DNA of 64,000 nt from an uncultured Gammaproteobacteria bacterium (GCA_964478235.1 CAYZGX010000002.1:20677-84676), one strand, 5' to 3'; positions 15,441 through 57,772 are shown, counted from the first letter of the stretch. Numbers and translations: made by a program. Notes: generated from the letters alone by a model not told the origin.

Positions 15441-15512
15441 GCACTCATCGTTCAATGGATAGGACATTGGCCTGCGAAGCCGAAAATTTAGGTTCGACTC
15501 CTAATGAGTGCA
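15441..15512 (+). tRNA. tRNA-Arg, anticodon GCG by manual fold
   Basis: Acceptor GCACTCA/TGAGTGC, D-arm GTTC-AATGGATA-GGAC with A20, anticodon stem TTGGC/GCCGA, loop CTGCGAA, T-arm TTAGG-TTCGACT-CCTAA, discriminator A. Confidence 0.7.
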
Positions 15513-15594
15513 CAAACTCCGAGCCTGTTGAACAGGCTCAGCTCATCGAAAAACGGCGCTAACCTGCGCTGTTTTTCGTTTCACGAGCGTCGTT

Positions 15595-17052
15595 CTAGGC
15601 GGACGTGGTCCCGTCCCGAAGAGATTTCGAACCTTCGAGCAGTCCGCGAATCACGGGAGTGAGTCGAAGTGTCGGCTTCAGGCTCGACAGGTCGACGCGC
15701 TCAACCACGGTGGCGATCACCTCTCGGCGTTCGACCGGGTCAGTCGAGTTCTTGAGGGTGGTATCGAGACGCTCGAGTACCTGCTGCAGGCGGAGGTCGC
15801 CATCGCCAGGCTCTCGCTCGCGGCCGACCGCGAGTAGCCACTCGGTCGCGCGGATCTCGTCGCGGAGTTGCCGGCGGCGCTCCTCGTACTCGGATTCCTG
15901 CAGGTTCTGGTGGACGTAGGTCAGGGCGAGCGTCTTCAGTTCGCCATCGAGCCGTCGGCGTGCCGCTCGAAGCGCTCGGGTCCGTTCAGCCGAGTCCGCC
16001 CGTGCTGCCCGTCGAGCCGCTCGAATGCGGCGTTTCAGCACCGGCAGCAGGCGTGAGGGGAGGGCGGTGGCGAGTAGTTCGGCGGCGACTTCGTCCTCGA
16101 CGTCACCAGCTCGGCGCGAGTTCCGGCAGGCCTTCTGGTGGCACCGGTAGTACCGGTGCACCCGGCCCGACTTCTTCTTGTGCTCCTCGCCGACGAGGAG
16201 CGATCCGCACTGCGGACAGGCAACCAGCCGCGACAGCGTGAACGAGAGGGTCTGTCGAGCGCGGGCAGAATTGCCCCGTTTCGCTCGAAACACTGCCTGG
16301 CACCGTTCGAACAGATCTCGCGACACGAGCGGCGCGTGGGTTCCGGCGTACGTCCCGCCGCCGGCGACCATCGTGCCAACGTAGAACGGATTCTGGAGGA
16401 TCCGGCACAGCTCGGTGTTCCGGACGCGGTTGTTGTGGGTCGAGACGAGCCCTGCTCTCCAGAGTTCCTCGGCGAGCTGCTCGGACGTGAGGGTGCCGGT
16501 CGCCCAGCGGTCGAAGGCCAGCTGGATGAACCGCGCTCGTGCTGGATCAGGTACCGCTCGACGTCGCTCCATCCGGTACCCGATCGGAGGCAGTGAAGCC
16601 CAGACGCCGCGTCGTAGACGCTCGTCGAGGCCTTTTTTGACTTCAGCCGCCAGGTTGGCGGAGTAGAATTCTGCTTGTGCAGCCATAATGTGTTCAATGA
16701 ACTCGCCCATGGGGGAGGCCTCGATGGTCTCGACGACCGAGAGAACGCGGACGCCGACGGACCGGAGGCGTCCCTTGAGGACGAGATAGTTAAAGGTGTC
16801 GCGTGAAAGCCGGTCGAGCTTGTGGACGAGGAGTCCGTCGATCGACCGGTCACCGGTGGCCGCCTGGACGGCGGCCATGAGCCCCGGCCGATCCCTGAGG
16901 GAGCGCGCCGAGGCGATGTCTTGGAACCGACCTGCGACCGTGAGGTCGTGGTCCTTGGCGTAGTGTTCCATGAGGTGGAACTGCGCCGACAGCGAGAGCT
17001 CGCGGTCCGCCTGACGGGCGGTCGAGACGCGAGCGTAGAGGAGGATAGCCAT
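15595..17052 (-). CDS. Large serine recombinase (resolvase/integrase family)
   Basis: N-terminal catalytic domain (LYARVSTARQ with the catalytic Ser), a recombinase domain, a Cys4 zinc ribbon (CPQC...CHQKAC) and a C-terminal coiled coil. The gene is about 64% GC. Confidence 0.85.
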   Translation of the reverse strand: MAILLYARVSTARQADRELSLSAQFHLMEHYAKDHDLTVAGRFQDIASARSLRDRPGLMAAVQAATGDRSIDGLLVHKLDRLSRDTFNYLVLKGRLRSVGVRVLSVVETIEASPMGEFIEHIMAAQAEFYSANLAAEVKKGLDERLRRGVWASLPPIGYRMERRRAVPDPARARFIQLAFDRWATGTLTSEQLAEELWRAGLVSTHNNRVRNTELCRILQNPFYVGTMVAGGGTYAGTHAPLVSRDLFERCQAVFRAKRGNSARARQTLSFTLSRLVACPQCGSLLVGEEHKKKSGRVHRYYRCHQKACRNSRRAGDVEDEVAAELLATALPSRLLPVLKRRIRAARRAARADSAERTRALRAARRRLDGELKTLALTYVHQNLQESEYEERRRQLRDEIRATEWLLAVGREREPGDGDLRLQQVLERLDTTLKNSTDPVERREVIATVVERVDLSSLKPTLRLTPVIRGLLEGSKSLRDGTTSA

Positions 17053-17108
17053 ACGCGTTGGTTAGTGAGTGACGTAGGTATCCTGACAGAGTAGGGTAGC
17101 AGGTGACG

Positions 17109-17146
17109 AGAGTCCCGTCGCCGGTGCAAACCGGCACGTTTGTGCC
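17109..17146. repeat. Direct repeat DR1 (38 bp) upstream of the cargo gene, in the divergent promoter region
   Basis: gagtcccgtcgccggtgcaaaccggcacgtttgtgcc; 33 of 37 positions are identical to DR2. Confidence 0.7.
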
Positions 17147-17210
17147 TCTTTGCGCCATTGTCGGCTTCGGGGTGTCATGGTACGCTACGAGAATCCAGAA
17201 GGGGACCTAT

Positions 17211-18713
17211 ATGCCAAAAAAACAGAAAAAATTACTCATCTACTTCTCAGACTATTTCGACGTGGATCCGAAGACGATCCTCGAGTTTGGCGCGTTCAAC
17301 GTCTCCCTCATCAATGACCTCCCTCTATTTATCGATCCGTTTCTCCTGTTTAGCAGCGAGTCGGAGGAATACCGGACCCTGCACGCTGACATCATTCGCT
17401 ACGTCTCCTTTCTGCGAGACAAGGCAGCAACCGGGACGCTGCCGCCGGGCAACCTGAAGGCATGGTTCATGTTTCCCGAGGTCAAGCAGACGTGGCTTGG
17501 CTTCTCTCGGGTCGGCAACTCGGGCTCGGGGCTCGGAATGAACTTCGCCCAGGCTCTCTGCCGGAATCTTCACGCACTCTTTCAGGACTTCGGCGCAGAG
17601 AGTGTCACGAAGAGTAGCCACCTCGAAAAGCTCTGTCTGATCGACGATGGTGTTGGCCGCGACAATATCAGCGACTTCACAACTAACCTGATCAAGAAGT
17701 TCCTGCTCACCTACACGCAGGAGTTCGCGCAGACAAAGCTCAAGCCACACCAAAGGAAGGCGTTTCGAGTCCCCAAGGTCGAGTTCGACTATGACACGGA
17801 GACCTGGAGCCCCCGCACGTTTGTGCTCCCGTGCGTCGAAAACGACTTCGTCGTCCTGACGCCGCGTGACCTCCTCACGAAGGATGAAACTTGGATCAAC
17901 CGGACGGACCTCTACGAACAGTTCGACGACATCGTGCAGGCGGTGCCGGACGATCAGCTTCGCGCGCAGATCAACAACTATCTTGTGTCGAAGTTGCCAA
18001 AGCGAGGGCGAAAGGACAAGGAGCCGACCCAAAAGGAACGCCGTCTCGCTGTCGCGCTCGTCCTTCAGAAATATCCCACGCTGCTCGATTACTACCTTCG
18101 CCACAAAGAGGACAGCGGCGATGAGGCCGAGGCAATCTCTGAGCGTCGAGTCGACGAATCCGAGACTGTTTTCATCAAGGGAGTGCTGAGATTCGTGGAG
18201 CAATTGTCTCAGGAAACGCAGTTCTATGAGACGAGCGATAGCTCGCATGCTGAGGCGAGGAAGCGCGTCTTGTTTCTGAAGGACGTCATCGAGAACATGG
18301 ATGGCTACCGCCTCTTCTACGGGGCCAACAGGAAGCCAGTGCGTCGAGAGGCCGATGTCCATCTCCTGTTTCGACTCACCTGGTACGCGACTTTGCAGGA
18401 TGTAAATCGAGAGGTGAACAATGGGCGTGGGCCAGTCGACTTCAAGGTCTCGCGCGGCGCTCGAAACGCCAGTCTCGTTGAGTTCAAACTAGCGTCGAAC
18501 AGTAAGCTCGAGTCCAACCTGGCGAATCAGGTCGAGATCTACAAGCGCGCTAGTGGAGCCGAGCATGCGCTTAAAGTCATCGTGTACTTCACGCGATCTG
18601 AGCTCGCCAGGGTGAATCGGATTTTGAAGAAGCTCGAACTGCGCGAAGATCCAAACGTGATTCTGATTGATGCGCGTGGCGACAACAAACCGTCCGCATC
18701 CAAGGTTCGCTAA
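17211..18713 (+). CDS. Hypothetical 500-aa cargo protein with a C-terminal RecB-like PD-(D/E)xK nuclease motif set
   Basis: The start is at MPKKQKK (17211). The C-terminus carries GPVDFKV (D), LVEFKL (ExK) and QVEIY (QxxxY). The N-terminal 350 aa has no recognisable family. About 62% GC. Confidence 0.65.
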   Translation: MPKKQKKLLIYFSDYFDVDPKTILEFGAFNVSLINDLPLFIDPFLLFSSESEEYRTLHADIIRYVSFLRDKAATGTLPPGNLKAWFMFPEVKQTWLGFSRVGNSGSGLGMNFAQALCRNLHALFQDFGAESVTKSSHLEKLCLIDDGVGRDNISDFTTNLIKKFLLTYTQEFAQTKLKPHQRKAFRVPKVEFDYDTETWSPRTFVLPCVENDFVVLTPRDLLTKDETWINRTDLYEQFDDIVQAVPDDQLRAQINNYLVSKLPKRGRKDKEPTQKERRLAVALVLQKYPTLLDYYLRHKEDSGDEAEAISERRVDESETVFIKGVLRFVEQLSQETQFYETSDSSHAEARKRVLFLKDVIENMDGYRLFYGANRKPVRREADVHLLFRLTWYATLQDVNREVNNGRGPVDFKVSRGARNASLVEFKLASNSKLESNLANQVEIYKRASGAEHALKVIVYFTRSELARVNRILKKLELREDPNVILIDARGDNKPSASKVR

Positions 18714-48042: not shown

Positions 48043-49743
48043 CTATGAGGCTCCGCCGTTTTCAAAATCTTTAAGCTGCTGCATGACCTCTTTGAGATCT
48101 TCAAGAGCTAGGCGTTCTTGAGGTGTTAGGCCATGGATTCGTTCAGCATTTTCAAGCACAGCAATCTGGCGTTGGGCGCGTGACATGAGCAGGCTAAAAA
48201 TTTGATGAGAGCGCTGTTCCACCTTGTGATAACGGCGTTTGAGGGCAAAGTATCGAGCCCAGCCAAGAATGCTAAGTAATAGCAAGATTGCTGCGCCAAT
48301 AGGAGAGTAGCGTTTATAGATCGCCAGCATGTTCGCCGCTAAAGATGGTGGTGGCAAAATGTTAATGGTCACAGCTGTTGACGGTTGTCCTTTGATGCCG
48401 GTAGTGCTCAAGACATAGGCAGTTACTTGAGCAGTTTCATCGGCGGAGGTTAGAACGGTGGACAGACTGAATGAGCCTTCGGAATTAGCAGCAGTCTCAA
48501 AGGTAATTAAGCCGGCTTGTCGGGATTGCACCTCGACAGCTATACGGGCACCAGGGTAGCGGGTTGAACCACGCACCACAATGTTGTCGCCGCGGTTAAT
48601 AAGCGAAGTGTAGTCGGTGATGGTTGGTGCGCCCAGTAGCTGTGTATCAACAGTAGTAGTGTAGAGCGACTGGTTGCCAGCTCGGTCATAAGCTGCCACC
48701 TTTAGAGCGTGTTGACCAGGTGTGAGATTTGGAAATAGTTTTGAGACTAAAACAGTGGTTGGCCCAGTCGCTTCAGGAGTAATGCGCACAACATCGTAAC
48801 TATCAAGGTGGACATCGTAGTGATCAACCCCAGACATTGCATCGGTCGCTTGTAAAACCAAGGTTTGTTGGAGGGAGTTGTTGAGAGTAAGAGCAGCTGA
48901 AACGTTGGATGGGTCAGTCGTATCAACACGTATCATGGTGCGGCTAGTTTTTGACCAACCACTAACAGTTTGGTAGCGCAAAGCAAAATAGTAAGTGCCG
49001 TCTTCCAGGTTAGCAAAAGATTTTTCATTAATCGATCGAGCTATGCGCTGGTCTGGTTCGGCAGTAGCAGACTTTCCGAAATAGGTTTCAAATACCCGTG
49101 TACCAGCCGGTATGTTCCAATTAAGTTCCGCTTCAGTTTTTGCATACCAAGACGTTTGGTCTGGGTGGGTTGGCGAAGTTGGCACTAAAGCAGTCAGCGT
49201 CGGTGCTGGTTTTGGAGAATCTGGTTGTTTAGTTGTATCTGCTGGGGCTGCCGCAGCAATTTCCACAGTTGTTCCGTTTTGGCCGGTAAAGACGTTTGTT
49301 CCCAAGCCGTCATTTTCGCGAATGGCAGCGCCGCTGAAGGTGAAGTTGGCAGTACCATCTTTTTTAGCTCGAAAAGTCGCTGAAACAACTCGGCCGCCCG
49401 ATCCAGTATATCCAGGGTTAGGGACACCGCCGTTGAATGAAACAACTCCATTAGAGGCTGTAGGCTGTTCTACCCATAACGAAAAAACCGATGGCTGACT
49501 AGCGACTGAAACTACCTCAACCAAATCAGCTGGGTAGACGATACTCGCTTCAGCATTATTAATAGTTTTAGTTTGGGTATTAATATAGGCGCTAATGGTA
49601 AAAGTATTTCCCACTGCAACATTTTTAGTTGAGGCGCTAAGCGACAAAGTCGCCGCTTGAACGGTATAAAAAGGAAATGTTAAACCAGCCAGTAGGTTTG
49701 TGGCTATAAATCCAGTTAGTAACTTTTGGTGGTACGGGCGCAT
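48043..49743 (-). CDS. Cell-surface protein with an N-terminal cohesin-like domain, an Ig-like domain and a C-terminal TM anchor
   Basis: Signal peptide, ATLSLSASTKNVAVGNTFTISAYIN...IVYPADLVEV (cohesin-like), SGVDHYDV...AYDRAGN (Ig-like), then a TM helix and a coiled-coil tail. Confidence 0.5.
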   Translation of the reverse strand: MRPYHQKLLTGFIATNLLAGLTFPFYTVQAATLSLSASTKNVAVGNTFTISAYINTQTKTINNAEASIVYPADLVEVVSVASQPSVFSLWVEQPTASNGVVSFNGGVPNPGYTGSGGRVVSATFRAKKDGTANFTFSGAAIRENDGLGTNVFTGQNGTTVEIAAAAPADTTKQPDSPKPAPTLTALVPTSPTHPDQTSWYAKTEAELNWNIPAGTRVFETYFGKSATAEPDQRIARSINEKSFANLEDGTYYFALRYQTVSGWSKTSRTMIRVDTTDPSNVSAALTLNNSLQQTLVLQATDAMSGVDHYDVHLDSYDVVRITPEATGPTTVLVSKLFPNLTPGQHALKVAAYDRAGNQSLYTTTVDTQLLGAPTITDYTSLINRGDNIVVRGSTRYPGARIAVEVQSRQAGLITFETAANSEGSFSLSTVLTSADETAQVTAYVLSTTGIKGQPSTAVTINILPPPSLAANMLAIYKRYSPIGAAILLLLSILGWARYFALKRRYHKVEQRSHQIFSLLMSRAQRQIAVLENAERIHGLTPQERLALEDLKEVMQQLKDFENGGAS

Positions 49744-49746
49744 GGA

Positions 49747-50553
49747 TTATTTTTTAGCTCGACGTTTTAAAAGCAGACCAAGACCAACCGCTACGATGAT
49801 GCTAATGACAATATAAACAAAAGAGAGAGAGGCTTTTGCTATGACGGTTGGCGGAAGGGTAGTGCTCGCCGCGTTGCCAGCTTTGTCATAGGCTACAACG
49901 GTAACAGGCAAGCTTCGATCTTGAGCGCGCAAAACATAGGTGTTACCAATACGTATTGCCGGGGAACTGCCCTCGGTAACTTCATAATGATCAATGCCAG
50001 ATTGAGCGTCAGTTGCAAATACTGATAAAAAAACTTTACCATTAAATAAGCTTGGATCTTGGCCAATATCGGCTGTAGTGAAAACTGGCGGTGTATTATC
50101 TTGGGCAACAATATCACGCTCAGCATTATGTGGTTCGGCGGTGGCACGACCAATTGAAAAAGATGTCGCCATTTCCTTTACCGGCACCGGCGTGCCTTTG
50201 CCGTCGTGAGCATAGGCGGAAAGTGTTGGTTTGAAGGTGAGTGTACCGGCATTGTTAACTTTAAAAAACATGGTAAACAATAAGCCGTTCGGACCACTAA
50301 AGCCAGTCGGCGCCCCACCGGTAAATGTAATGGTTTTAGCGGTTGGCGACCATGATGGTTTGCGAACCCAATATGATAATGCAGAACCAGCCACGCTCAC
50401 CTCGCGCATGTCAACAAGTGTACCACCAACAGGTATCGAAAGCGTCCCTTCCACTACATTAATATCCTTCCCCTCGGTATTGAGATATACTCCAACAGAC
50501 ACAATGTCATTTTTGTGGATAGTGGGTGTTGATGGTGTGAGTGTGATGTACAT
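49747..50553 (-). CDS. Paralogous cohesin-like and Ig-like protein, C-terminally anchored
   Basis: ITLTPSTPTIHKNDIVSVGVYLN...; SGIDHYEV...AYDKAGN; C-terminal TM helix plus KRRAKK. Confidence 0.5.
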   Translation of the reverse strand: MYITLTPSTPTIHKNDIVSVGVYLNTEGKDINVVEGTLSIPVGGTLVDMREVSVAGSALSYWVRKPSWSPTAKTITFTGGAPTGFSGPNGLLFTMFFKVNNAGTLTFKPTLSAYAHDGKGTPVPVKEMATSFSIGRATAEPHNAERDIVAQDNTPPVFTTADIGQDPSLFNGKVFLSVFATDAQSGIDHYEVTEGSSPAIRIGNTYVLRAQDRSLPVTVVAYDKAGNAASTTLPPTVIAKASLSFVYIVISIIVAVGLGLLLKRRAKK

Positions 50554-50556
50554 AGA

Positions 50557-53094
50557 TTATTTTTTCTTATCCCATTGGTAGAGCAAGATGGAAAAATCTA
50601 CTGAGTTAACCTGGGCATCTTTATTGATATCAACACAAGGGTTGCGGAACGGTGGAGTCAACTTCCAGAAAGCTAATAAGATAGAAAAATCAATCGAATT
50701 TACACGAGTGTCATGGTTGAAGTCAGCCCCAGAGCAGGTTTGTGCACCAACAGGCTGTGTAGAGGTAGTTTCTGGTGCAAGAGAGCTAGGGCCTCCACCA
50801 CCACCTCCGCCGCCTCCTCCTCCTCCACCACCTCCGCCGCCACCGCCACCGTCAGTTTCTCCGCTAGGAATGGTAAACATGCGGGAAGAGCCGGATTGTT
50901 CGGTGCCAAAGTATACTACTAATCTAAAATAGTGAACCCCTACCGATGTAACGGTGGTAGAGAGGTCAGTGTTAAAATCTTCACCGGGGTTGATAAATTT
51001 TGCAGCCGAAGCGTAGTAGACATCGTTACTCCCACCGCATGGATTGGTAAGATCTTGCACGACACACCACTCATAGTGGTATTCATAACCACTGGTACCT
51101 TCGTTGGTAATAGTGACGTTGGCAGAAACATCAGGGGCGGTGCTTGAAGTTACACTGTTAATAATAACTTGAGCGGGGGAGGTGGCCACAAGCCAGTAGT
51201 CGTTAGTTGTAATTGTTTTTCCACTCTCAACTTGGGTGGAAACCGACGATTCCCACAAGCCGCCGGTGGCCGCGCTTGAAATCGAATAGGTGTATTCATA
51301 GACACCGGTAGCGATACTAGTCATACTGGCGCCAGAAATAATCACGTTACGATCAGCGTCATAGATAGTGATTGCGGGTACGGTAAATGAGGCGGTTGGG
51401 ACAGAATTGCTGTTAAGCACGTATATTTTGGCGCGGTAGGTGTTACCAGCTGCTACACTGTCAATATTTGACATGGTAACCAAAAAACCAGCGGTCTGGT
51501 TAGACAGTGAAGCGCGGGTGGAGGCGGCTACGTCAATATTAGCAGTCAAGAAGTTGCCGATTGTGCTAGCAGTGGTCAGGGTGCTAGTTAAAACTGACCA
51601 TACATCAGCAGCAGTAATATTGTTTCCGTAGTTGGTCAGAGTACGAGCGGCATTGCTCCAGACAGCGAGTGCAAGCGAGGTGGTAGAGTAATCGGTCAAG
51701 GTTCGAACAGAGGTGTTCCACACGTCAGCAGCACTGAGTGTGCTCGTGCCGCGAGAAGAAACCTGGGCATCGAGGTTGGTAGCAAGAAGTCGTCCAACTG
51801 AGCCAAGACTGGTGAGAGTGGTTGTCGGAACCTGCCAAATTGCTGTAGCAATAGTGGAGGTACTGTAATCGGTGAGGGTGCGGCTACCAGCTGCCCACAC
51901 ATCGTTAGCGCTAATGTTATTAAGCGCGTTTATGAGCGATCGGTTAGTTAGAACCTCGGTGCGGATTGTAGACGCGGCAATATCTGTGTTAGCTGCCAGC
52001 TGTTGCCCGATAGTGCCAGCAACGGAAAGTGTCGATGTTAAAATGCTCCAAACTTCAGCAGCAGTAATATCGTTACCGTAGTTAGTTAGAGTACGAGCGG
52101 CATTGCTCCAGACAGCCAGTGATAATGAAGTAGTTGAATAGTCGGTCAGAGTACGAGCGGCACTATTCCACACGTCAGCAGCGCTGAGTGTGCTCGTGCC
52201 ACGAGAAGAAACCTGGGCGTCGAGGTTGGTGGCAAGGAGTCGCCCAACTGAACCAAGGCTGGTGAGAGTGGTTGTTGGAATTTCCCAGATGGCAGAAGCA
52301 ATACTGGAAGTGCCATAGTTGGTAAGTGAGCGGGTCGACGCAGCCCAGACATCGCTCGCGCTAATATTATTGAGAGCATTAATGAGTGAGCGGTTGGCAA
52401 GGACTTCGGTAATAATACTTGAGGTAGCAGTATTCAGAGCGGTGGCAATGTATGATTCGGTAGCAATTGTTCCGCCTCCTGTTAATGTGCTGTCGGTCAA
52501 GCGACGAGTTGGGGCGGTAATATCGCTCCAGATATCGGTAACGAGTGTGCCAAAGCCAGTCAAAGTGCGGGTTCCGGCGCTCCAGACATCGGTAGCGATA
52601 GTCGCCCCCGAAGTGAGTGTTCGCGCAGCTGAGCTCCAGACTGAAGTAGCAATCGACGAAGTCGAGGCGCCAGAAGAGGTAATGGTAAAAGTTTTATCAA
52701 TTTTGGCCAGATCACCACCAACGAGTGTTCCGCAGGTTATAGCTGCTGGGTACACACCCTCGGTAGAAGTGGGGGCAAATGAATAACTCTGCCAGCCGTT
52801 GTCACTGGTTGTAGTTAGAGCAACATTATTAACCAATAAAAGGTTGGAAGGGCTGTAAATAGAGATAGAGCAACTGGTCGTTGCAGCTACAAAATCATCA
52901 TTGTAAATAAATTCACCAATAGTGTTGGTAGTATTGAGTGGGTATTGCGTAATACCAGCGGCTAAGGCTGCTTGTGGCGCGGAAAAAAAGCTGCACAAGG
53001 CGAGAAGTGAAAAAAAAGAAAGAAAGCCCCCGGATGATTTTTTGGGCGCTATCTTTAAAAGTCGTGCGCTAAATTCACGATTAAAAAAAATCAC
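50557..53094 (-). CDS. Large secreted repeat protein with a poly-Gly linker and a C-terminal tandem dockerin-like module
   Basis: Signal peptide. Repeated VWS(N)AARTLT(D/N)Y units, including two ~150-aa near-identical repeats. A run of 22 Gly. C-terminal DFNHDTRVNSIDFSILL and DINKDAQVNSVDFSILL, matching the D-x-N-x-D-x-x-VNS-x-D pattern. Confidence 0.6.
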   Translation of the reverse strand: MIFFNREFSARLLKIAPKKSSGGFLSFFSLLALCSFFSAPQAALAAGITQYPLNTTNTIGEFIYNDDFVAATTSCSISIYSPSNLLLVNNVALTTTSDNGWQSYSFAPTSTEGVYPAAITCGTLVGGDLAKIDKTFTITSSGASTSSIATSVWSSAARTLTSGATIATDVWSAGTRTLTGFGTLVTDIWSDITAPTRRLTDSTLTGGGTIATESYIATALNTATSSIITEVLANRSLINALNNISASDVWAASTRSLTNYGTSSIASAIWEIPTTTLTSLGSVGRLLATNLDAQVSSRGTSTLSAADVWNSAARTLTDYSTTSLSLAVWSNAARTLTNYGNDITAAEVWSILTSTLSVAGTIGQQLAANTDIAASTIRTEVLTNRSLINALNNISANDVWAAGSRTLTDYSTSTIATAIWQVPTTTLTSLGSVGRLLATNLDAQVSSRGTSTLSAADVWNTSVRTLTDYSTTSLALAVWSNAARTLTNYGNNITAADVWSVLTSTLTTASTIGNFLTANIDVAASTRASLSNQTAGFLVTMSNIDSVAAGNTYRAKIYVLNSNSVPTASFTVPAITIYDADRNVIISGASMTSIATGVYEYTYSISSAATGGLWESSVSTQVESGKTITTNDYWLVATSPAQVIINSVTSSTAPDVSANVTITNEGTSGYEYHYEWCVVQDLTNPCGGSNDVYYASAAKFINPGEDFNTDLSTTVTSVGVHYFRLVVYFGTEQSGSSRMFTIPSGETDGGGGGGGGGGGGGGGGGGGGPSSLAPETTSTQPVGAQTCSGADFNHDTRVNSIDFSILLAFWKLTPPFRNPCVDINKDAQVNSVDFSILLYQWDKKK
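51520..52440. repeat. Intragenic tandem duplication (~450-bp unit, two copies, ~90% identity)
   Basis: gcagcagtaatat...gagtacgagcggcattgctccagacag recurs at about 51607 and about 52058. Confidence 0.75.
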
Positions 53095-53121: not shown

Positions 53122-53301
53122 CTATTTTTTCTTGGATTGAGAATCTTCGGTTGGGGCTGCTTCACCATCTTTAAAAGCGCTTCGCAAATGACGAATAGCT
53201 TCAGTAATACTCTTAGCTAATTCTGGGATTTTTTTAGTCCCAAACAAGAGAATTACCACAATGGCTAAAATGACGATTTCTTTTGTTCCAATATTAAACA
53301 T
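53122..53301 (-). CDS. tatA: Twin-arginine translocase subunit TatA/E (59 aa; too short for the supplied ORF track)
   Basis: MFNIGTKEIVILAIVVILLFGTKKIPELAKSITEAIRHLRSAFKDG is a TatA-type TM helix plus amphipathic helix with the conserved FG hinge. Confidence 0.75.
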   Translation of the reverse strand: MFNIGTKEIVILAIVVILLFGTKKIPELAKSITEAIRHLRSAFKDGEAAPTEDSQSKKK

Positions 53302-53306
53302 AGTGG

Positions 53307-54032
53307 TTAGTTAGTTTCTTGAATAGCTTTATTAGCATTCATTAAAATAGTAATTTCGTATAAAACCAGCAAAGGTAGAACCATTATCAATAATGATACA
53401 CCATCAGTTGGTGGAAGTAAAGTCACAAAAATAAAAATAGTAAGCACAGCATGACGGCGTTTTCCGCGTAATTGCGGAGCGCTCAACAAACCGAGTTTTA
53501 CCAGAAAACTAAGAACAATTGGGAATTCAAAGGTGAGCCCAAGGAAGGTGGAGGTGATAAAAATTTGCTCTAAAAATTGGCCGATATCCCAGTAATTTTT
53601 GATGCCAAGGCTAGTGTTGATATCAGCAATGGCGCCAAAAGTGGAATGCATGGTAAAAAAACCGTAGGCAAAACCAGAGGCAAAGAGAATGATGGTTCCA
53701 GGGATCGTAGCAAAAAAACGACGTTTTTCTCGCTTGTTTAAGCCAGTTTTTAAAAAAGAAAATATCTGAAAAGCAATGTAGGGTAGGGTAAAAATGAGAG
53801 CAAAGAAAAGCCCGGTATTCATAGAAAGATCTAAGAATTGAAAGGGTGAAGTTGCCACCATTAAGACCCCGTCAAATTCCATTAACGTCTTAAATACTCG
53901 AAAAAAAGGAATTGTACAAAGGAATCCGACAGCAAAAAAGAATAAAAAAACAATCGCAATGCGGTAGATGCGCCGGCGAATTTCATCTATGTAGATGGCG
54001 TACGGGGCAAATTTTTTCCAAAAAGTAGTCAT
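53307..54032 (-). CDS. tatC: Twin-arginine translocase subunit TatC
   Basis: Six-TM topology with a TatC-like N-terminus. Adjacent to tatA. Confidence 0.75.
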   Translation of the reverse strand: MTTFWKKFAPYAIYIDEIRRRIYRIAIVFLFFFAVGFLCTIPFFRVFKTLMEFDGVLMVATSPFQFLDLSMNTGLFFALIFTLPYIAFQIFSFLKTGLNKREKRRFFATIPGTIILFASGFAYGFFTMHSTFGAIADINTSLGIKNYWDIGQFLEQIFITSTFLGLTFEFPIVLSFLVKLGLLSAPQLRGKRRHAVLTIFIFVTLLPPTDGVSLLIMVLPLLVLYEITILMNANKAIQETN

Positions 54033-54067: not shown

Positions 54068-55099
54068 TTATTCAGTTGGAATAGTGTCGTTTGGTTCAGA
54101 AACTGCTACGCTTTCGGTTGGTGCTGGGCTAGCATCTTGGGGAGGGGCCGTAACTGGTTCGATTATCGGGAGTTCAGCTGGGGCGACAACAGGCGCTTCA
54201 ACTGCTGGCAGTTCGATCGGGGCTGTAGAGGCTGTTTCTGTAGGTGGGACAACTGGTTCGGTAGATGTTGGGAACTCTACAGGGAGAGGTGGGTTGGGTG
54301 TAGAGGTGCTTGGAGTTGGAACCTCGGAGATTGGCGCAAAAAACGGTGAGGTTGTAGCAATGGTACTACTGGCAGTTGAGGTAAGAATTGGAGCATTCGG
54401 AATATCGATAGTCAGGGGAACAATGGCAACCGTGCTTGTAGGGACAACTGTTGGAAGAGCTGTTGCGGTGCGGTGTTTATTTAGCCATTGGGCAACAGCA
54501 GCCACACCCTCTTCCCATGAAGCATATGTGTGGGTAGAAGAACCAGTGTTGCCAACATTGCCAGGGTTGTTGGTGGTGGCGCCAATGCCAAGGGTACCAA
54601 AAAATGAATCAAGCTGAATAATCGCGGTTACCAGGCGCATATCCACTGAGTATTGGTGGGCGCTAAACCAAACCATCTCACCAGTTATCGGACTAGCTGG
54701 AGCCGCTGCGATAATATAGTCGGTGATGTCTTTTGAAGAAACAAAAACCGGCATTTTTGATAAAATAGTGTCGATTTTTTGCTGATGTAGCGGGTCGGTG
54801 GCGTAGAGTGAGATGTCATAGCCAAGCATGGTGGTGGCTGGAGCTGGTCGTGGAGTAGTATCAAGAACGACTTCTAGGCCACTCGCCACAATTTCGGCCG
54901 GGGAAGAATTGGCTGCTTGCGCGCCCATCTCTACGGTGGCTAGTAATAAAATTTGGCTTAGGGTGACTTGAGTTTGTCGGTAGTCAGTATCGGCTGCTTG
55001 GTAATTTTCTAAATCACCATTTTGCAAATGCAAACCACGCATCGAATTGAGAGTGATGAGTCGTTTCTCGAGGATTGTTTTCAGGAAATCAAGATCCAT
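54068..55099 (-). CDS. Hypothetical protein with a Pro/Thr-rich C-terminal half
   Basis: A structured N-domain followed by about 150 aa of P/T/S/A-rich low-complexity sequence. Confidence 0.45.
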   Translation of the reverse strand: MDLDFLKTILEKRLITLNSMRGLHLQNGDLENYQAADTDYRQTQVTLSQILLLATVEMGAQAANSSPAEIVASGLEVVLDTTPRPAPATTMLGYDISLYATDPLHQQKIDTILSKMPVFVSSKDITDYIIAAAPASPITGEMVWFSAHQYSVDMRLVTAIIQLDSFFGTLGIGATTNNPGNVGNTGSSTHTYASWEEGVAAVAQWLNKHRTATALPTVVPTSTVAIVPLTIDIPNAPILTSTASSTIATTSPFFAPISEVPTPSTSTPNPPLPVEFPTSTEPVVPPTETASTAPIELPAVEAPVVAPAELPIIEPVTAPPQDASPAPTESVAVSEPNDTIPTE

Positions 55100-55102
55100 A
55101 AC

Positions 55103-57772
55103 CTAGGTAAAGAGTAGTGCTTTAAAGCTTTCCAAGTTACTTGGGCGATTAATCCACAACCACTTTAATCCATCAACAGTGGTAAATATTTCCATTTTAT
55201 TACCCACGATGGCAGTACCGGCAGTATAAGGGTACTGTCCAGCCGCCTCTAAGGTATTTTCGACAACATCTAAATAATATATTCTTTGTGTAGTGGCGGA
55301 TACGTTGAGATATAAGCGGTCACCGCCATCATAAGCGTATTGTGCACCGGTGGTAAGCGTTTCAATCTGCGGAGTGATACTCATCGGCTCCCAGCGATTG
55401 GTGGTGATATTGAAACGATCAAAGCCGAGCGCTGCACTACCTTTGGCGGAGAAAATAAATTTACCTTTCATGTTAGCGTCGGAGGTGCCAAAACCCCACT
55501 TCATACAGGTTGCCAAACCGCGCGTTACTTCGTCGTAGACAGTGTAGGATGTTGAAGCTGCCACCGGTAGTGTGCCAGCAACAGTAATAGTCAAGACTGT
55601 AGAAGTATTTGAAGAAACGATACCTTCGATATCAGATTGGCCAGCGCCGGCGGTTTTTTTGACGCGCTTACCAGTAAAGATGTTGGTGGCCCAGGTTTGA
55701 CTACTATCGGCAATAGCGGTAGTAGTTTGGCCGGCGCCGGTGGCAATACCAGAGGTGCTCGCACCATATCCAGCACGCTCACAAATAACATACCGACCAG
55801 TACCGTTTACCGGCAATGTAGTGGCAGTTTTTAGGGTAAGCGTCGTGGCAGTATTGGAAGAGATTTCCATACCAACCGAGATGAGCGAGCCGGTGGCGGC
55901 TACTGGGTTGGCGGCGGCATAGTAAACGATATAGTTGGCCCAAGCGTTCACCGTCCAATTTTGTGAAGCGTCGGTCAGAGTGGATGTAGAAAAACCGGTA
56001 AAGGTAGCATTGCCCGATGGAGTGCCCCCCATAGTGTAGGTAAATACTGTTGCGCTGGTCACCGATACAACGGTAGTAGTGATGTTGTAGGTGGCCGCAT
56101 CGCCACCGGTGGCGCCTTGTATTTTTATATAGTCGCCAACTTTGAGACGGTGTGCGTTGACGGTGGTTACTGTTGCGGTGGTAGTAGAAAAGGTAATAGT
56201 GGAAATAGCTTGATCGCGGCGGGACAAGACGCCGGAAGAGTTGCACAAAGTAACGGTGCCTTGTGCCGGTGATCCTGAGGCAAAATTGCGTCCCAAGAAA
56301 CACATATCAGAAGGAATGCTGTACCCGATGATGGCCGATTGCACGCCCATGGCAAAGAAAATTTTGTCGTAGTCGCCAACAATAATATAGCCACTCGTGG
56401 TATCAGGAGTCGTTGTCCAAGCATTCTCCGCATACAAGGTAAGGGCGGTGGCAGTATTACTCGCAATACGTCGGCGCTGGCCAATACCGGTGCCGGAAAT
56501 AATTTCTACCATATAATTGGCCCAGCGATTGGTGGTCCAGCTAGCGGCTGGGGCGTTTGTATCAGTAAGTGTGGTACTGGTAGCAGCTGTTGCCACACCG
56601 CCTCCAAATCCTTCAATACGGTACAAAGTGGTTGTATCAGCTGGGGTGGTAATACTGCCTGCCCACGTGAGCACAGTGGCAGTATTTGAGACGATAAGAC
56701 GAATTTGATCAGCGCCCGAGGATGGTTTGGTACCAGAATAAAAACGGACATAATAGCCAGCCCATTCGTTGGTAGTCCAGTTTTTTGTGCTGTCGGTGAG
56801 GGTGGTGATAGTGCCAGAAGTCGCAGTACCCTTTTCCCACAAAGTCGCATTCAGATTTGGTTTTTCGATAGCTCCGTCGGTGGCGGCAACGTTGAGTAGG
56901 GCTGAGGTAGCTGAGCGGATATACCAGGTATCAGCAGCTACGTCGTAAAACTGAACAGTATAAAAAGGAATTGAAGCACTAGAGGAGAATAAAAAGATGC
57001 CGCCTGATTCCACAATAAAGCGTGATGAAGAATCTGGGGTGACATCCCAAGCAGTATCAACGGTGATAACAGAGCTTTCTATTTGATAGATAGAGCCAAC
57101 GCCGGCAGCTTGAGCAACAAAAGCGGTAGCCGGTGCAGCTGGGTTGGTGTTGTAGTCGATTTCGTAACCACCAGTATCAGCGTAGGTAAACACCGTGGCA
57201 GTATGGTGTAAAATTTTACGCACTGCCCCGATACCAGCGCCGTAGATAACGCGAAATTGATAACCAGCATACTGGTTGATAGCTGCGGTAGAAGTAGAAT
57301 CAGTGAAAGTTAAACCAGCACTGATGGCTGTCATGATGCCGGTTTGGGCGACCACTGGGTCAGCTACAGCAGTAATTTTGCGGCGTTGCCCCGCCCCGGT
57401 GCCCGAAACAATTTTAATATCATACCCTTTGAGCACCTGGCCGTTGTAGGCAGCAGCTGTAATGGTGGTAGCGGTAGCAGACAAAACAGCCCCTTCATAG
57501 CCATAATCACTCGAAAATTTCATGGATGCCCAAGTGGTTGGGGCAATAGTTGGGATACTTAGCTGAATGTAGGTATCATTCCAGGTGTCGTATTTGTAAA
57601 AGAGTGCCGCAGTAATGAGGTAGTAGATGTAGCGGCCGTGAGATTCGTGTGAGATGCTATTTTCAGCAGTAGTAGAACAGCTAAATGCTGCTGATACAGC
57701 TGGTGCAAAACGACACCACTTCCAGACGGGTGTATCAACTTGTCTAATGAGTTTATTAGTAGTAAGTGCCAT
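55103..57772 (-). CDS. Large (889 aa) Thr/Ala/Gly-rich secreted repeat protein
   Basis: Recurrent WxxNxW/AGxG motifs throughout. No TM helix after the N-terminus. Confidence 0.45.
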   Translation of the reverse strand: MALTTNKLIRQVDTPVWKWCRFAPAVSAAFSCSTTAENSISHESHGRYIYYLITAALFYKYDTWNDTYIQLSIPTIAPTTWASMKFSSDYGYEGAVLSATATTITAAAYNGQVLKGYDIKIVSGTGAGQRRKITAVADPVVAQTGIMTAISAGLTFTDSTSTAAINQYAGYQFRVIYGAGIGAVRKILHHTATVFTYADTGGYEIDYNTNPAAPATAFVAQAAGVGSIYQIESSVITVDTAWDVTPDSSSRFIVESGGIFLFSSSASIPFYTVQFYDVAADTWYIRSATSALLNVAATDGAIEKPNLNATLWEKGTATSGTITTLTDSTKNWTTNEWAGYYVRFYSGTKPSSGADQIRLIVSNTATVLTWAGSITTPADTTTLYRIEGFGGGVATAATSTTLTDTNAPAASWTTNRWANYMVEIISGTGIGQRRRIASNTATALTLYAENAWTTTPDTTSGYIIVGDYDKIFFAMGVQSAIIGYSIPSDMCFLGRNFASGSPAQGTVTLCNSSGVLSRRDQAISTITFSTTTATVTTVNAHRLKVGDYIKIQGATGGDAATYNITTTVVSVTSATVFTYTMGGTPSGNATFTGFSTSTLTDASQNWTVNAWANYIVYYAAANPVAATGSLISVGMEISSNTATTLTLKTATTLPVNGTGRYVICERAGYGASTSGIATGAGQTTTAIADSSQTWATNIFTGKRVKKTAGAGQSDIEGIVSSNTSTVLTITVAGTLPVAASTSYTVYDEVTRGLATCMKWGFGTSDANMKGKFIFSAKGSAALGFDRFNITTNRWEPMSITPQIETLTTGAQYAYDGGDRLYLNVSATTQRIYYLDVVENTLEAAGQYPYTAGTAIVGNKMEIFTTVDGLKWLWINRPSNLESFKALLFT

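What the first reader, a model, noticed from the sequence alone, without database searches (positions are those of the whole stretch)
48043..53094. Cellulosome-like cohesin and dockerin modules in a surface-protein operon next to tatA-tatC
The 845-aa repeat protein ends with two tandem 20-residue segments, DFNHDTRVNSIDFSILLAFW and DINKDAQVNSVDFSILLYQW. Both fit the calcium-binding type-I dockerin pattern D-x-N-x-D-x-x-V-N-S-x-D...LL. The two genes immediately downstream in the same operon each open with a roughly 140-aa beta-rich domain resembling cohesins (...FTISAYIN...IVYPADLVEV and ...VSVGVYLN...). Each is tethered by a C-terminal TM anchor. A dockerin cargo protein encoded beside two membrane-anchored cohesin candidates suggests a self-contained surface display or adhesion complex. 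That would be unusual in a small-genome organism with otherwise only housekeeping genes. The shared SG(V/I)DHY(D/E)V...AYD(R/K)AGN domain in both anchors is a further uncharacterised paralogous module.
Basis: inference. Interest (0 to 1): 0.7.

Follow-up and report, generated by a model that had tools for sequence, protein, structure and literature searches.

The report
Cohesin–dockerin surface anchor in CPR bacteria
A large secreted repeat protein ends in a genuine calcium-type dockerin and is followed by two membrane-anchored proteins whose outermost domain is a cohesin; the trio is conserved across hundreds of ultra-small (CPR/Patescibacteria) bacteria and most likely pins a non-enzymatic fibre or adhesin to the cell surface.

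The parts
50557..53094 (-). P1: 845-aa secreted cargo protein. Order of parts: Sec-type signal peptide, N-terminal beta domain, VW..RTLT repeat region, two macroglobulin/Ig-like domains, poly-Gly linker, C-terminal dockerin.
50560..50736 (-). Dockerin module (P1 residues ~787-845). The two Ca-loop + helix segments have loops at 50689-50724 (DFNHDTRVNSID) and 50596-50631 (DINKDAQVNSVD).
   Evidence: Pfam PF00404, 26.4/32.2 bits against cutoff 22.9. The profile of orthologous tails hits 19 PDB sequences, nearly all named dockerins or dockerin-bearing cellulosomal enzymes; best is 2mte, E 5.2e-12. Ca positions 1, 3, 5, 9, 12 are 87-100% conserved in 71 sequences. Two helices modelled at pLDDT ~76-87.
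50798..50850 (-). Core of the poly-Gly linker (23 Gly) that tethers the dockerin to the body of P1.
   Evidence: Translation; TRF period-9 array. Gly-rich linkers precede the dockerin in relatives.
51493..52671 (-). P1 repeat region (residues ~142-534), with the 450-nt duplication (copies at 51518-51817 and 51968-52267).
   Evidence: Direct repeat. Low-confidence helical segments in the monomer model. Inference: this part may need oligomerisation to fold.
49747..50553 (-). P2: 268-aa short anchor. Cohesin-like domain (residues 2-140, nt 50134-50550), Big_13-like Ig domain (153-234, nt 49852-50097), TM (243-262, nt 49768-49827), then KRRAKK. No signal peptide in this genome.
   Evidence: ORF; family alignment A2; hhalign against the P3 domains, 99.9% and 99.4%; family HMM hits.
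48043..49743 (-). P3: 566-aa long anchor. Signal peptide (1-30), cohesin (31-163, nt 49255-49653), Pro/Thr linker, FN3/Ig-like domain, Big_13-like domain (272-369, nt 48637-48930), Ig-like domain (374-463), then TM plus a long cytoplasmic helix (466-565).
53122..53301 (-). TatA (59 aa), conserved neighbour directly upstream of P1.
   Evidence: Translation; annotated PF02416 in the same-strain contig L003; conserved position in relatives.
53307..54032 (-). TatC (241 aa), conserved neighbour.
   Evidence: Pfam TatC, E 2.4e-39. Upstream of P1 in many loci; in L006 it reads in frame into P1.
54068..55099 (-). G343: 343-aa protein with weak glucosaminidase (peptidoglycan hydrolase) similarity. A frequent upstream member of the cluster.
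   Evidence: Pfam PF01832, E 0.0023, below cutoff. Homologues sit in the same position in L005, L006, L030, L033, L043, L049, L056, L059, L084.
55103..57772 (-). B889: 889-aa repeat protein with no recognisable signal peptide. A frequent first gene of the conserved cluster.
   Evidence: No Pfam hit; PHROG tail-fiber family phrog_529, E 1e-7, over residues 523-592; conserved position in relatives.

Best explanation
This is a non-cellulosomal cohesin-dockerin cell-surface anchoring system of a CPR/Patescibacteria bacterium.

Shown or supported by tool results: P1 has a Sec-type signal peptide. Its body has no recognisable catalytic domain and consists of an N-terminal beta domain, about 390 residues of repeats and two macroglobulin/Ig-like domains. 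A flexible poly-Gly linker leads to a C-terminal type-I-like dockerin whose two Ca-binding loops are intact. P3, and P2 in most relatives, are single-pass type-I membrane proteins. Their membrane-distal N-terminal domain is a cohesin held on a stalk of Ig-like domains.

Inferred: the Ca-loaded dockerin of P1 plugs into the cohesin of P3 and/or P2. This tethers the P1 fibre or adhesin non-covalently to the cell envelope, tens of nanometres from the membrane. The two dockerin segments are nearly identical. P1 could therefore bind in either orientation (a dual binding mode), or bridge P2 and P3 at once.

More speculative: P1 serves attachment to a host cell or substrate, or forms a surface coat. 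This would fit the episymbiotic lifestyle of CPR bacteria.
For: Dockerin: Pfam score above cutoff. The family profile hits solved type-I dockerins across both segments. Ca ligand positions and DFSILL are conserved in 71 species. The module is at the extreme C-terminus in 105 of 106 homologues.

Partnership: the order dockerin gene, P2, P3 on one strand, with gaps of -65 to +91 nt, occurs in 70 of 83 genome loci by an automatic rule, plus L004, L007 and L059 on inspection. Starting from the dockerin side, 68 of 75 metagenome loci have a cohesin domain within 400 nt downstream, and 51 of 53 longer ones have two cohesin ORFs. The 64-kb window has exactly one dockerin and two cohesins. P1-like relatives without a dockerin end in a TM-like segment or another motif, and lack P2-P3 directly downstream in the two cases examined.

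Topology: signal peptides, C-terminal TM helices and positive-inside tails. Non-enzymatic cargo.
Against: No binding was tested or modelled; no multimer prediction was available. P2 and P3 of this window do not reach any Pfam Cohesin score themselves. P2 here lacks a signal peptide, so its cohesin may not reach the surface in this organism. The stoichiometry of one dockerin to two cohesins is unexplained. The conserved TatC-TatA neighbourhood has no place in the model, because P1, P2 and P3 have Sec-type signals without twin arginines. The P1 repeat region is not confidently modelled, so its function as adhesin, fibre or coat is a guess.
Confidence: 0.7

Rival explanations
1. The modules are real but are not partners. 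The dockerin is a Ca-stabilised terminal module that binds something else, such as a host or wall component, or nothing. The cohesin-fold domains of P2/P3 would then be ligand-binding or spacer beta-sandwiches. Gene adjacency would reflect a shared envelope function, not direct docking.
For: No interaction data exist. The window's P2/P3 miss the Pfam Cohesin model. From my own background knowledge, dockerin-like and cohesin-like modules often occur without an identified partner in non-cellulosomal organisms. P2 here has no export signal. Lone P3 paralogues occur without a dockerin gene in L057, L063, L075, L078 and L079.
Against: The linkage is almost obligate from both directions, with tiny or overlapping intergenic gaps. 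The dockerin is always C-terminal on a flexible linker, and the cohesin is always the membrane-distal domain. Conserved cohesin residues fall mainly on strands 3, 5, 6 and around strand 8. By my reading, this corresponds to the classical dockerin-binding sheet; that is an inference.
Confidence: 0.15
2. The same docking mechanism applies, but the cargo is an S-layer-like coat protein. P1 would form the regular outer protein layer of the cell, and P2/P3 would be its membrane pedestals, rather than P1 being a discrete adhesin or fibre.
Against: P1 length varies from about 540 to over 5000 aa among relatives through repeat expansion. That pattern is more typical of fibres or adhesins than of lattice proteins. 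There is no lattice-forming evidence. The S-layer structural hits are weak and generic for Ig folds.
Confidence: 0.12
3. It is a true (mini-)cellulosome that assembles polysaccharide-degrading enzymes on the surface.
For: The presence of cohesin and type-I-like dockerin modules.
Against: P1 has no glycoside hydrolase, CBM or other CAZyme domain. Each anchor has a single cohesin. The window holds only one dockerin. The cargo family is the same non-enzymatic protein in all relatives.
Confidence: 0.02
4. The cluster is a domesticated or integrated phage tail-fibre module rather than a cellular surface system.
For: B889 has a weak match to a phage tail-fibre family (phrog_529, E 1e-7). Peptidase_S74 fibre-like proteins occur near some relatives.
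Against: P1, P2 and P3 have no significant PHROG matches. The cluster sits between housekeeping genes (TatAC, HU, TsaD, DNA polymerase III) in the same order across distant species. No phage structural or replication genes are adjacent.
Confidence: 0.03

Closest known systems
Non-cellulosomal cohesin-dockerin pairs, such as the Clostridium perfringens glycoside-hydrolase toxin complexes (cohesins 2vo8, 2w1n, 2o4e) and the Archaeoglobus fulgidus cohesin (2xdh)
   Different: In C. perfringens both partners are secreted enzymes. Here the cohesin carriers are TM-anchored stalk proteins and the dockerin carrier has no catalytic domain. Sequence identity to these cohesins is only 14-18%.
Cellulosome anchoring scaffoldins of Clostridia and Ruminococcus (for example C. 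thermocellum OlpA/OlpC/SdbA with type-I or type-II cohesins, and R. flavefaciens ScaE)
   Different: From background knowledge, those anchors use SLH domains or sortase/LPXTG attachment; here the anchor is a C-terminal TM helix. The cargo is a multi-cohesin scaffoldin or an enzyme there, and a repeat/Ig protein here. Here two paralogous one-cohesin anchors are encoded directly after their single cargo.
Big_13 / BIg-type bacterial Ig-like domains of giant adhesins (SiiE 2yn3; OmpL47-type domain)
   Same: The shared SG(V/I)DHY...AYD(K/R)AGN module of P2 and P3 matches Pfam Big_13 (25.6 bits in P3; 56 of 60 orthologues, best E 1.6e-15), NCBIfam OmpL47-type domain and SiiE.
   Different: It occurs as a single copy in a short stalk rather than in long tandem arrays. 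The window proteins score just below the Pfam cutoff of 27 bits.
Essential dockerin-domain surface protein SEML1_0315 of the Saccharibacterium Southlakia epibionticum (Wang et al. 2023, PMC10633639)
   Same: It is a CPR bacterium. The protein is a large envelope protein with Ig/FN3-type domains that the authors describe as carrying a dockerin domain. It was essential in Tn-seq.
   Different: Its neighbours are an alpha/beta hydrolase gene and a tRNA. No P2/P3-like or Tat genes are adjacent. I could not compare sequences, so orthology is not established.

Membership tests
Dockerin (Pfam PF00404, type I) | Sequence match to the family model at or above the curated cutoff | tested here: met
   26.4 bits in the whole protein and 32.2 bits for the isolated tail, against cutoff 22.9. 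The relative in L002 scores 29.0 bits.
Dockerin (Pfam PF00404, type I) | Two tandem ~22-residue segments, each an EF-hand-like Ca loop (ligands at positions 1, 3, 5, 9, 12) followed by a helix | tested here: met
   Loops DFNHDTRVNSID and DINKDAQVNSVD. Ligand positions are 87-100% conserved in 71 sequences. Two helices are modelled at residues 800-808 and 831-843. The profile aligns over both segments of the CelS dockerin.
Dockerin (Pfam PF00404, type I) | Ca-dependent binding to a cognate cohesin | not testable with these tools
   Supported only indirectly, by conserved gene adjacency.
Cohesin (Pfam PF00963) | Sequence match to the family model at or above the curated cutoff | tested here: not met
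   No hit for P2 or P3 of the window, even up to E = 10 on the isolated domains. Orthologues do pass, at 26-34 bits against 24.1, on the equivalent N-terminal domain. Membership is therefore by transitive homology.
Cohesin (Pfam PF00963) | Nine-stranded beta-sandwich (jelly-roll) cohesin fold of about 140 residues | tested here: met
Cohesin (Pfam PF00963) | Binds a dockerin through the 8-3-6-5 sheet | not testable with these tools
   Conserved residues concentrate on strands 3, 5, 6 and the loop after strand 8. This is an inference only.
Cellulosome | Scaffoldin with multiple cohesins that integrates several dockerin-bearing enzymes | tested here: not met
   There is one cohesin per anchor protein and one dockerin in 64 kb.
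Cellulosome | Dockerin-bearing subunits are carbohydrate-active enzymes; a CBM targets the substrate | tested here: not met
   P1 and its homologues carry only MG2/Ig-like domains and repeats. I found no CBM.
Tat substrate (twin-arginine exported protein) | N-terminal S/T-R-R-x-F-L-K motif before the hydrophobic core | tested here: not met
   None of the genuine P1 N-termini has RR within its signal peptide; the RR hits listed come from over-extended ORF starts or the TatC part of the L006 fusion. The window's P1, P2 and P3 lack it as well.
Big_13 bacterial Ig-like domain (PF19077) | Sequence match to the family model | tested here: inconclusive
   P3 scores 25.6 bits, just below the cutoff of 27. 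56 of 60 orthologues match at E <= 0.01, best 1.6e-15. A profile hit to the SiiE BIg domain gives E 1.9e-5.

The most novel reading that the evidence does not exclude
The seven- to eight-gene block B889, G343 (glucosaminidase-like), TatC, TatA, P1, P2, P3 encodes a lineage-defining envelope apparatus of Paceibacteria-type CPR bacteria. In it a cohesin-dockerin joint is the universal coupling between the membrane and the main surface fibre used for host or substrate attachment. The linked Tat genes and the wall hydrolase would take part in its assembly. Variants such as the signal-peptide-less, in-frame P2 seen here would reflect alternative assembly routes, for example a read-through P1-P2 fusion or pre-assembly before export.
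Probability: 0.2. Interest if true: 0.8.

Novelty: new variant of a known kind. Interest (0 to 1): 0.55.

Why it matters
CPR/Patescibacteria are a large share of bacterial diversity. Most are thought to live attached to other cells, yet the molecules that build their surface and mediate attachment are largely unknown. This work identifies a compact three-gene module that is nearly always linked and is present in hundreds of species. It gives a clear mechanistic hypothesis that is easy to test: Ca-dependent docking of one conserved fibre or adhesin onto two membrane stalks. That offers a concrete handle for biochemistry, cryo-ET labelling and genetics. It also extends the cohesin-dockerin principle from enzyme assembly to general envelope architecture in minimal cells. 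The CPR pairs could also supply new orthogonal cohesin-dockerin pairs for protein engineering.

Tried and rejected
- Pfam on the isolated N-domains at E <= 10 found nothing.
- phmmer of P3 against PDB sequences gave 0 hits. The full-length P3 family profile against PDB found only the SiiE BIg domain, not cohesins. Sequence methods alone therefore do not reach solved cohesins.
- The protein comparison profile-profile call failed, so I ran hhalign locally.
- A Tat-substrate explanation for the TatAC neighbourhood found no twin-arginine motif in P1, P2 or P3, or in the genuine P1 N-termini examined.
- I looked for natural P1-P2 fusions that might explain the in-frame, signal-peptide-less P2. There were none among 120 homologues, and no hidden signal peptide in the other frames.
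- PHROGs gave nothing significant for P1, P2 or P3. TRF found only the poly-Gly array.
- Five literature searches found no description of this CPR triad.
- The Southlakia dockerin protein SEML1_0315 does not share the gene neighbourhood, so I do not equate the two.
- I considered predicting a fused dockerin-cohesin chain.
Full report
OBSERVATION. The three minus-strand ORFs are exactly as described: P1 at 50557-53094 (845 aa), P2 at 49747-50553 (268 aa) and P3 at 48043-49743 (566 aa). P1 ends with a run of 23 Gly, a short linker, and the two quoted segments. The relaxed motif D-x-[NDS]-x-[DNS]-x-x-[VIL]-[NDS]-x-x-D occurs nowhere else in the six-frame translation of the 64-kb window. P1 is a repeat protein. 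It has a 450-nt internal duplication, with two copies 78% identical over 300 nt, plus many short VW..RTLT sub-repeats visible in the translation. TatA (53122-53301) and TatC (53307-54032) lie directly upstream. All source names given for homologues are CPR/Patescibacteria lineages: Magasanikbacteria, Paceibacteria, Nomurabacteria, Doudnabacteria and others. An independent assembly of a ~99%-identical strain (L003) has the same gene order and the same junctions.

DOCKERIN. Pfam Dockerin_1 scores 26.4 bits in the whole protein and 32.2 bits on the isolated tail, against a cutoff of 22.9. I aligned 23 orthologous tails (A4). The resulting profile hits 19 distinct PDB sequences. Nearly all are named dockerins or dockerin-bearing cellulosomal enzymes. 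The best is the C. thermocellum Cel48S type-I dockerin (2mte, E 5.2e-12), aligned over both segments. In 71 tails from different species, Ca-ligand positions 1, 3, 5, 9 and 12 of both loops are 87-100% conserved, and DFSI(L/M)L is essentially invariant. Among 120 P1 homologues, 106 carry the module, and 105 of those have it within 12 residues of the C-terminus. The AlphaFold model places two helices there at pLDDT ~76-87.

COHESINS. Neither P2 nor P3 of the window reaches any Pfam Cohesin score, even as isolated domains at E <= 10. phmmer and profile searches against PDB sequences find no cohesin either. Three other lines of evidence do support a cohesin.

(i) P3 has hundreds of full-length orthologues. 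Of the 60 I aligned, 25 match PF00963 (best E 3.4e-9). That set was enriched for such hits, so 25/60 is not an unbiased rate. In seven relatives checked individually, the hit is above cutoff (26-34 bits against 24.1) and maps to the N-terminal domain, residues ~12-156. NCBI already names some relatives "cohesin domain-containing protein".

(iii) P2's N-domain is homologous to P3's over 133 columns (hhalign probability 99.9%, E 1.3e-31). The N-domain against mid-domain control gives 0.6%.

THE SHARED MODULE. The SG(V/I)DHY...AYD(K/R)AGN module is also homologous between P2 and P3 (99.4%). It is a Big_13-type bacterial Ig-like domain: 25.6 bits in P3, 56 of 60 orthologues matching, and a profile hit to the SiiE BIg domain.

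ARCHITECTURE.
- P3 has a signal peptide ending VQA|A, then the cohesin, a Pro/Thr-rich linker, three Ig/FN3-like domains (the middle one Big_13), a TM helix and a ~75-residue cytoplasmic helix.
- P2 has the cohesin, a Big_13 domain, a TM helix and a KRRAKK tail.
- I found no catalytic or carbohydrate-binding domain in P1 or its homologues.

CONSERVATION OF THE TRIAD. A scan of one genome per species found 394 genomes encoding a P3 relative. I analysed 83 loci with local HMMs. By an automatic rule, 70 have a dockerin-tailed ORF, then P2, then P3 on one strand, with P1-P2 gaps of -65 to +91 nt. L004, L007 and L059 also have the triad on inspection. Of the remaining ten, four are cut off by contig ends, five are lone P3 paralogues and one (L023) has P2-P3 with no dockerin gene upstream.

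I then tested the link from the other direction with a metagenome scan using the dockerin-tail profile. It found at least 487 relatives. Of the 80 loci kept, 75 have usable downstream sequence. In 68 of them a cohesin domain starts within 400 nt downstream, and in five more at about 450-550 nt. Of the 53 with at least 1.7 kb downstream, 51 show two successive cohesin ORFs.

Upstream, TatC-TatA (often with a second TatA) precedes P1 in many loci. B889 and G343 homologues precede those. In L006 the TatC ORF runs without a stop into P1's own Met and signal peptide.

P1-like proteins without a dockerin end in a hydrophobic TM-like segment (P0244, P0252) or in a ...IKLET motif. In the two cases with context, they lack P2-P3 directly downstream. 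This fits the dockerin being one of several interchangeable anchoring devices.

MECHANISM. Best supported, at about 0.7 confidence: P1 is exported by Sec. Its Ca-bound dockerin, held on a flexible poly-Gly tether, docks into the membrane-distal cohesin of P3 and/or P2, so P1 is displayed on the cell surface. The modules, the topology signals and the linkage are shown by the results above. The binding itself is inferred, as is the role of P1 as adhesin, fibre or coat. The near-perfect internal symmetry of the dockerin allows either a dual binding mode or simultaneous bridging of the two anchors.

UNEXPLAINED.
(1) P2 of this genome has no signal peptide, although about 67 of 70 orthologues do. 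P1's TAA stop is followed by one codon and then P2's ATG in the same frame. The same layout arose independently in L029 (in frame) and L070 (out of frame). Possible explanations are read-through fusion, loss of function, or another export route; none is tested.
(2) The tight Tat linkage has no explanation, because P1, P2 and P3 lack twin-arginine motifs.

COMPARISON AND NOVELTY. The system works like the anchoring end of a cellulosome, and like the non-cellulosomal cohesin-dockerin pairs of C. perfringens and A. fulgidus. It is not a cellulosome, since it has no multi-cohesin scaffoldin, no CAZyme and no CBM. Public annotation pipelines already label relatives as cohesin-domain or dockerin-domain proteins. 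Five full-text searches found no paper describing the conserved CPR triad or its Tat-linked cluster. An essential dockerin-domain protein reported in a cultivated Saccharibacterium has a different gene neighbourhood. I therefore rate this a new variant of a known kind, of moderate to good interest for CPR cell biology.

Noticed in passing
window 49744-50559 (P1/P2 and P2/P3 junctions): P1, P2 and P3 are all in the same reading frame, each separated by a stop codon plus exactly 3 nt. P2 starts at the mature N-terminus with no signal peptide. The same signal-peptide-less layout occurs in L029 (in frame) and L070 (out of frame).
   Followed up: partly
L006 7282-9993: TatC and the dockerin protein form one continuous 903-aa ORF. 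TatC residues 7-239 are followed, without a stop, by P1's own Met and signal peptide. In L059 and L062 TatC abuts P1 with no TatA in between.
   Followed up: partly
proteins P0244, P0252, P0237, P0242, P0247, P0249, P0253 (P1 relatives); loci L087-L089: P1-like repeat proteins without a dockerin end either in a hydrophobic TM-like segment or in a recurrent C-terminal ...(N/K)IKLET motif of unknown function. P0237 lies next to a 1469-aa Peptidase_S74 (tail-fibre chaperone domain) protein.
   Followed up: partly
window 15441-18713: A 485-aa serine-recombinase-like ORF (15595-17052, minus strand; begins MAILLYARVSTARQ) has GC of about 0.61 against a background of about 0.46. It sits directly beside a tRNA gene (15441-15512) and is followed by a 536-aa ORF of unknown function. 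This is probably a small integrated mobile element.
   Followed up: no
window 55103-57772 and 54068-55099: B889 (no signal peptide, SNTAT(V/A)LT-type repeats, weak phage tail-fibre PHROG hit) and G343 (weak glucosaminidase similarity, Pro/Thr-rich C-terminus) are conserved upstream partners of TatCA and the triad in many relatives. Their roles are unknown.
   Followed up: partly
L004 2-2620; L056 7572-9800; L067 8395-10437; L084 6511-9946; L057, L063, L075, L078, L079: Some genomes carry extra P2-P3 pairs, additional P3-like paralogues next to the triad, or lone P3 copies elsewhere. The cohesin-anchor family has therefore diversified beyond one pair per genome.
   Followed up: no
L007 1-9992; L009, L026, L058, L060 upstream ORFs: In several relatives the dockerin-tailed protein is giant, at more than 3000-5000 aa and cut by the locus end. 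This implies large repeat expansion of the cargo while the C-terminal dockerin stays unchanged.
   Followed up: no
window 50588-50932 (+): A 114-aa plus-strand ORF with a poly-Pro run is simply the antisense reading of the poly-Gly linker region of P1. It is not a gene.
   Followed up: yes
Genome contigs record titles: Many loci with this CPR-specific cluster come from TPA assemblies titled 'uncultured Gammaproteobacteria bacterium' or 'uncultured Candidatus Saccharibacteria bacterium'. These titles look like unreliable placeholder taxonomy.
   Followed up: no
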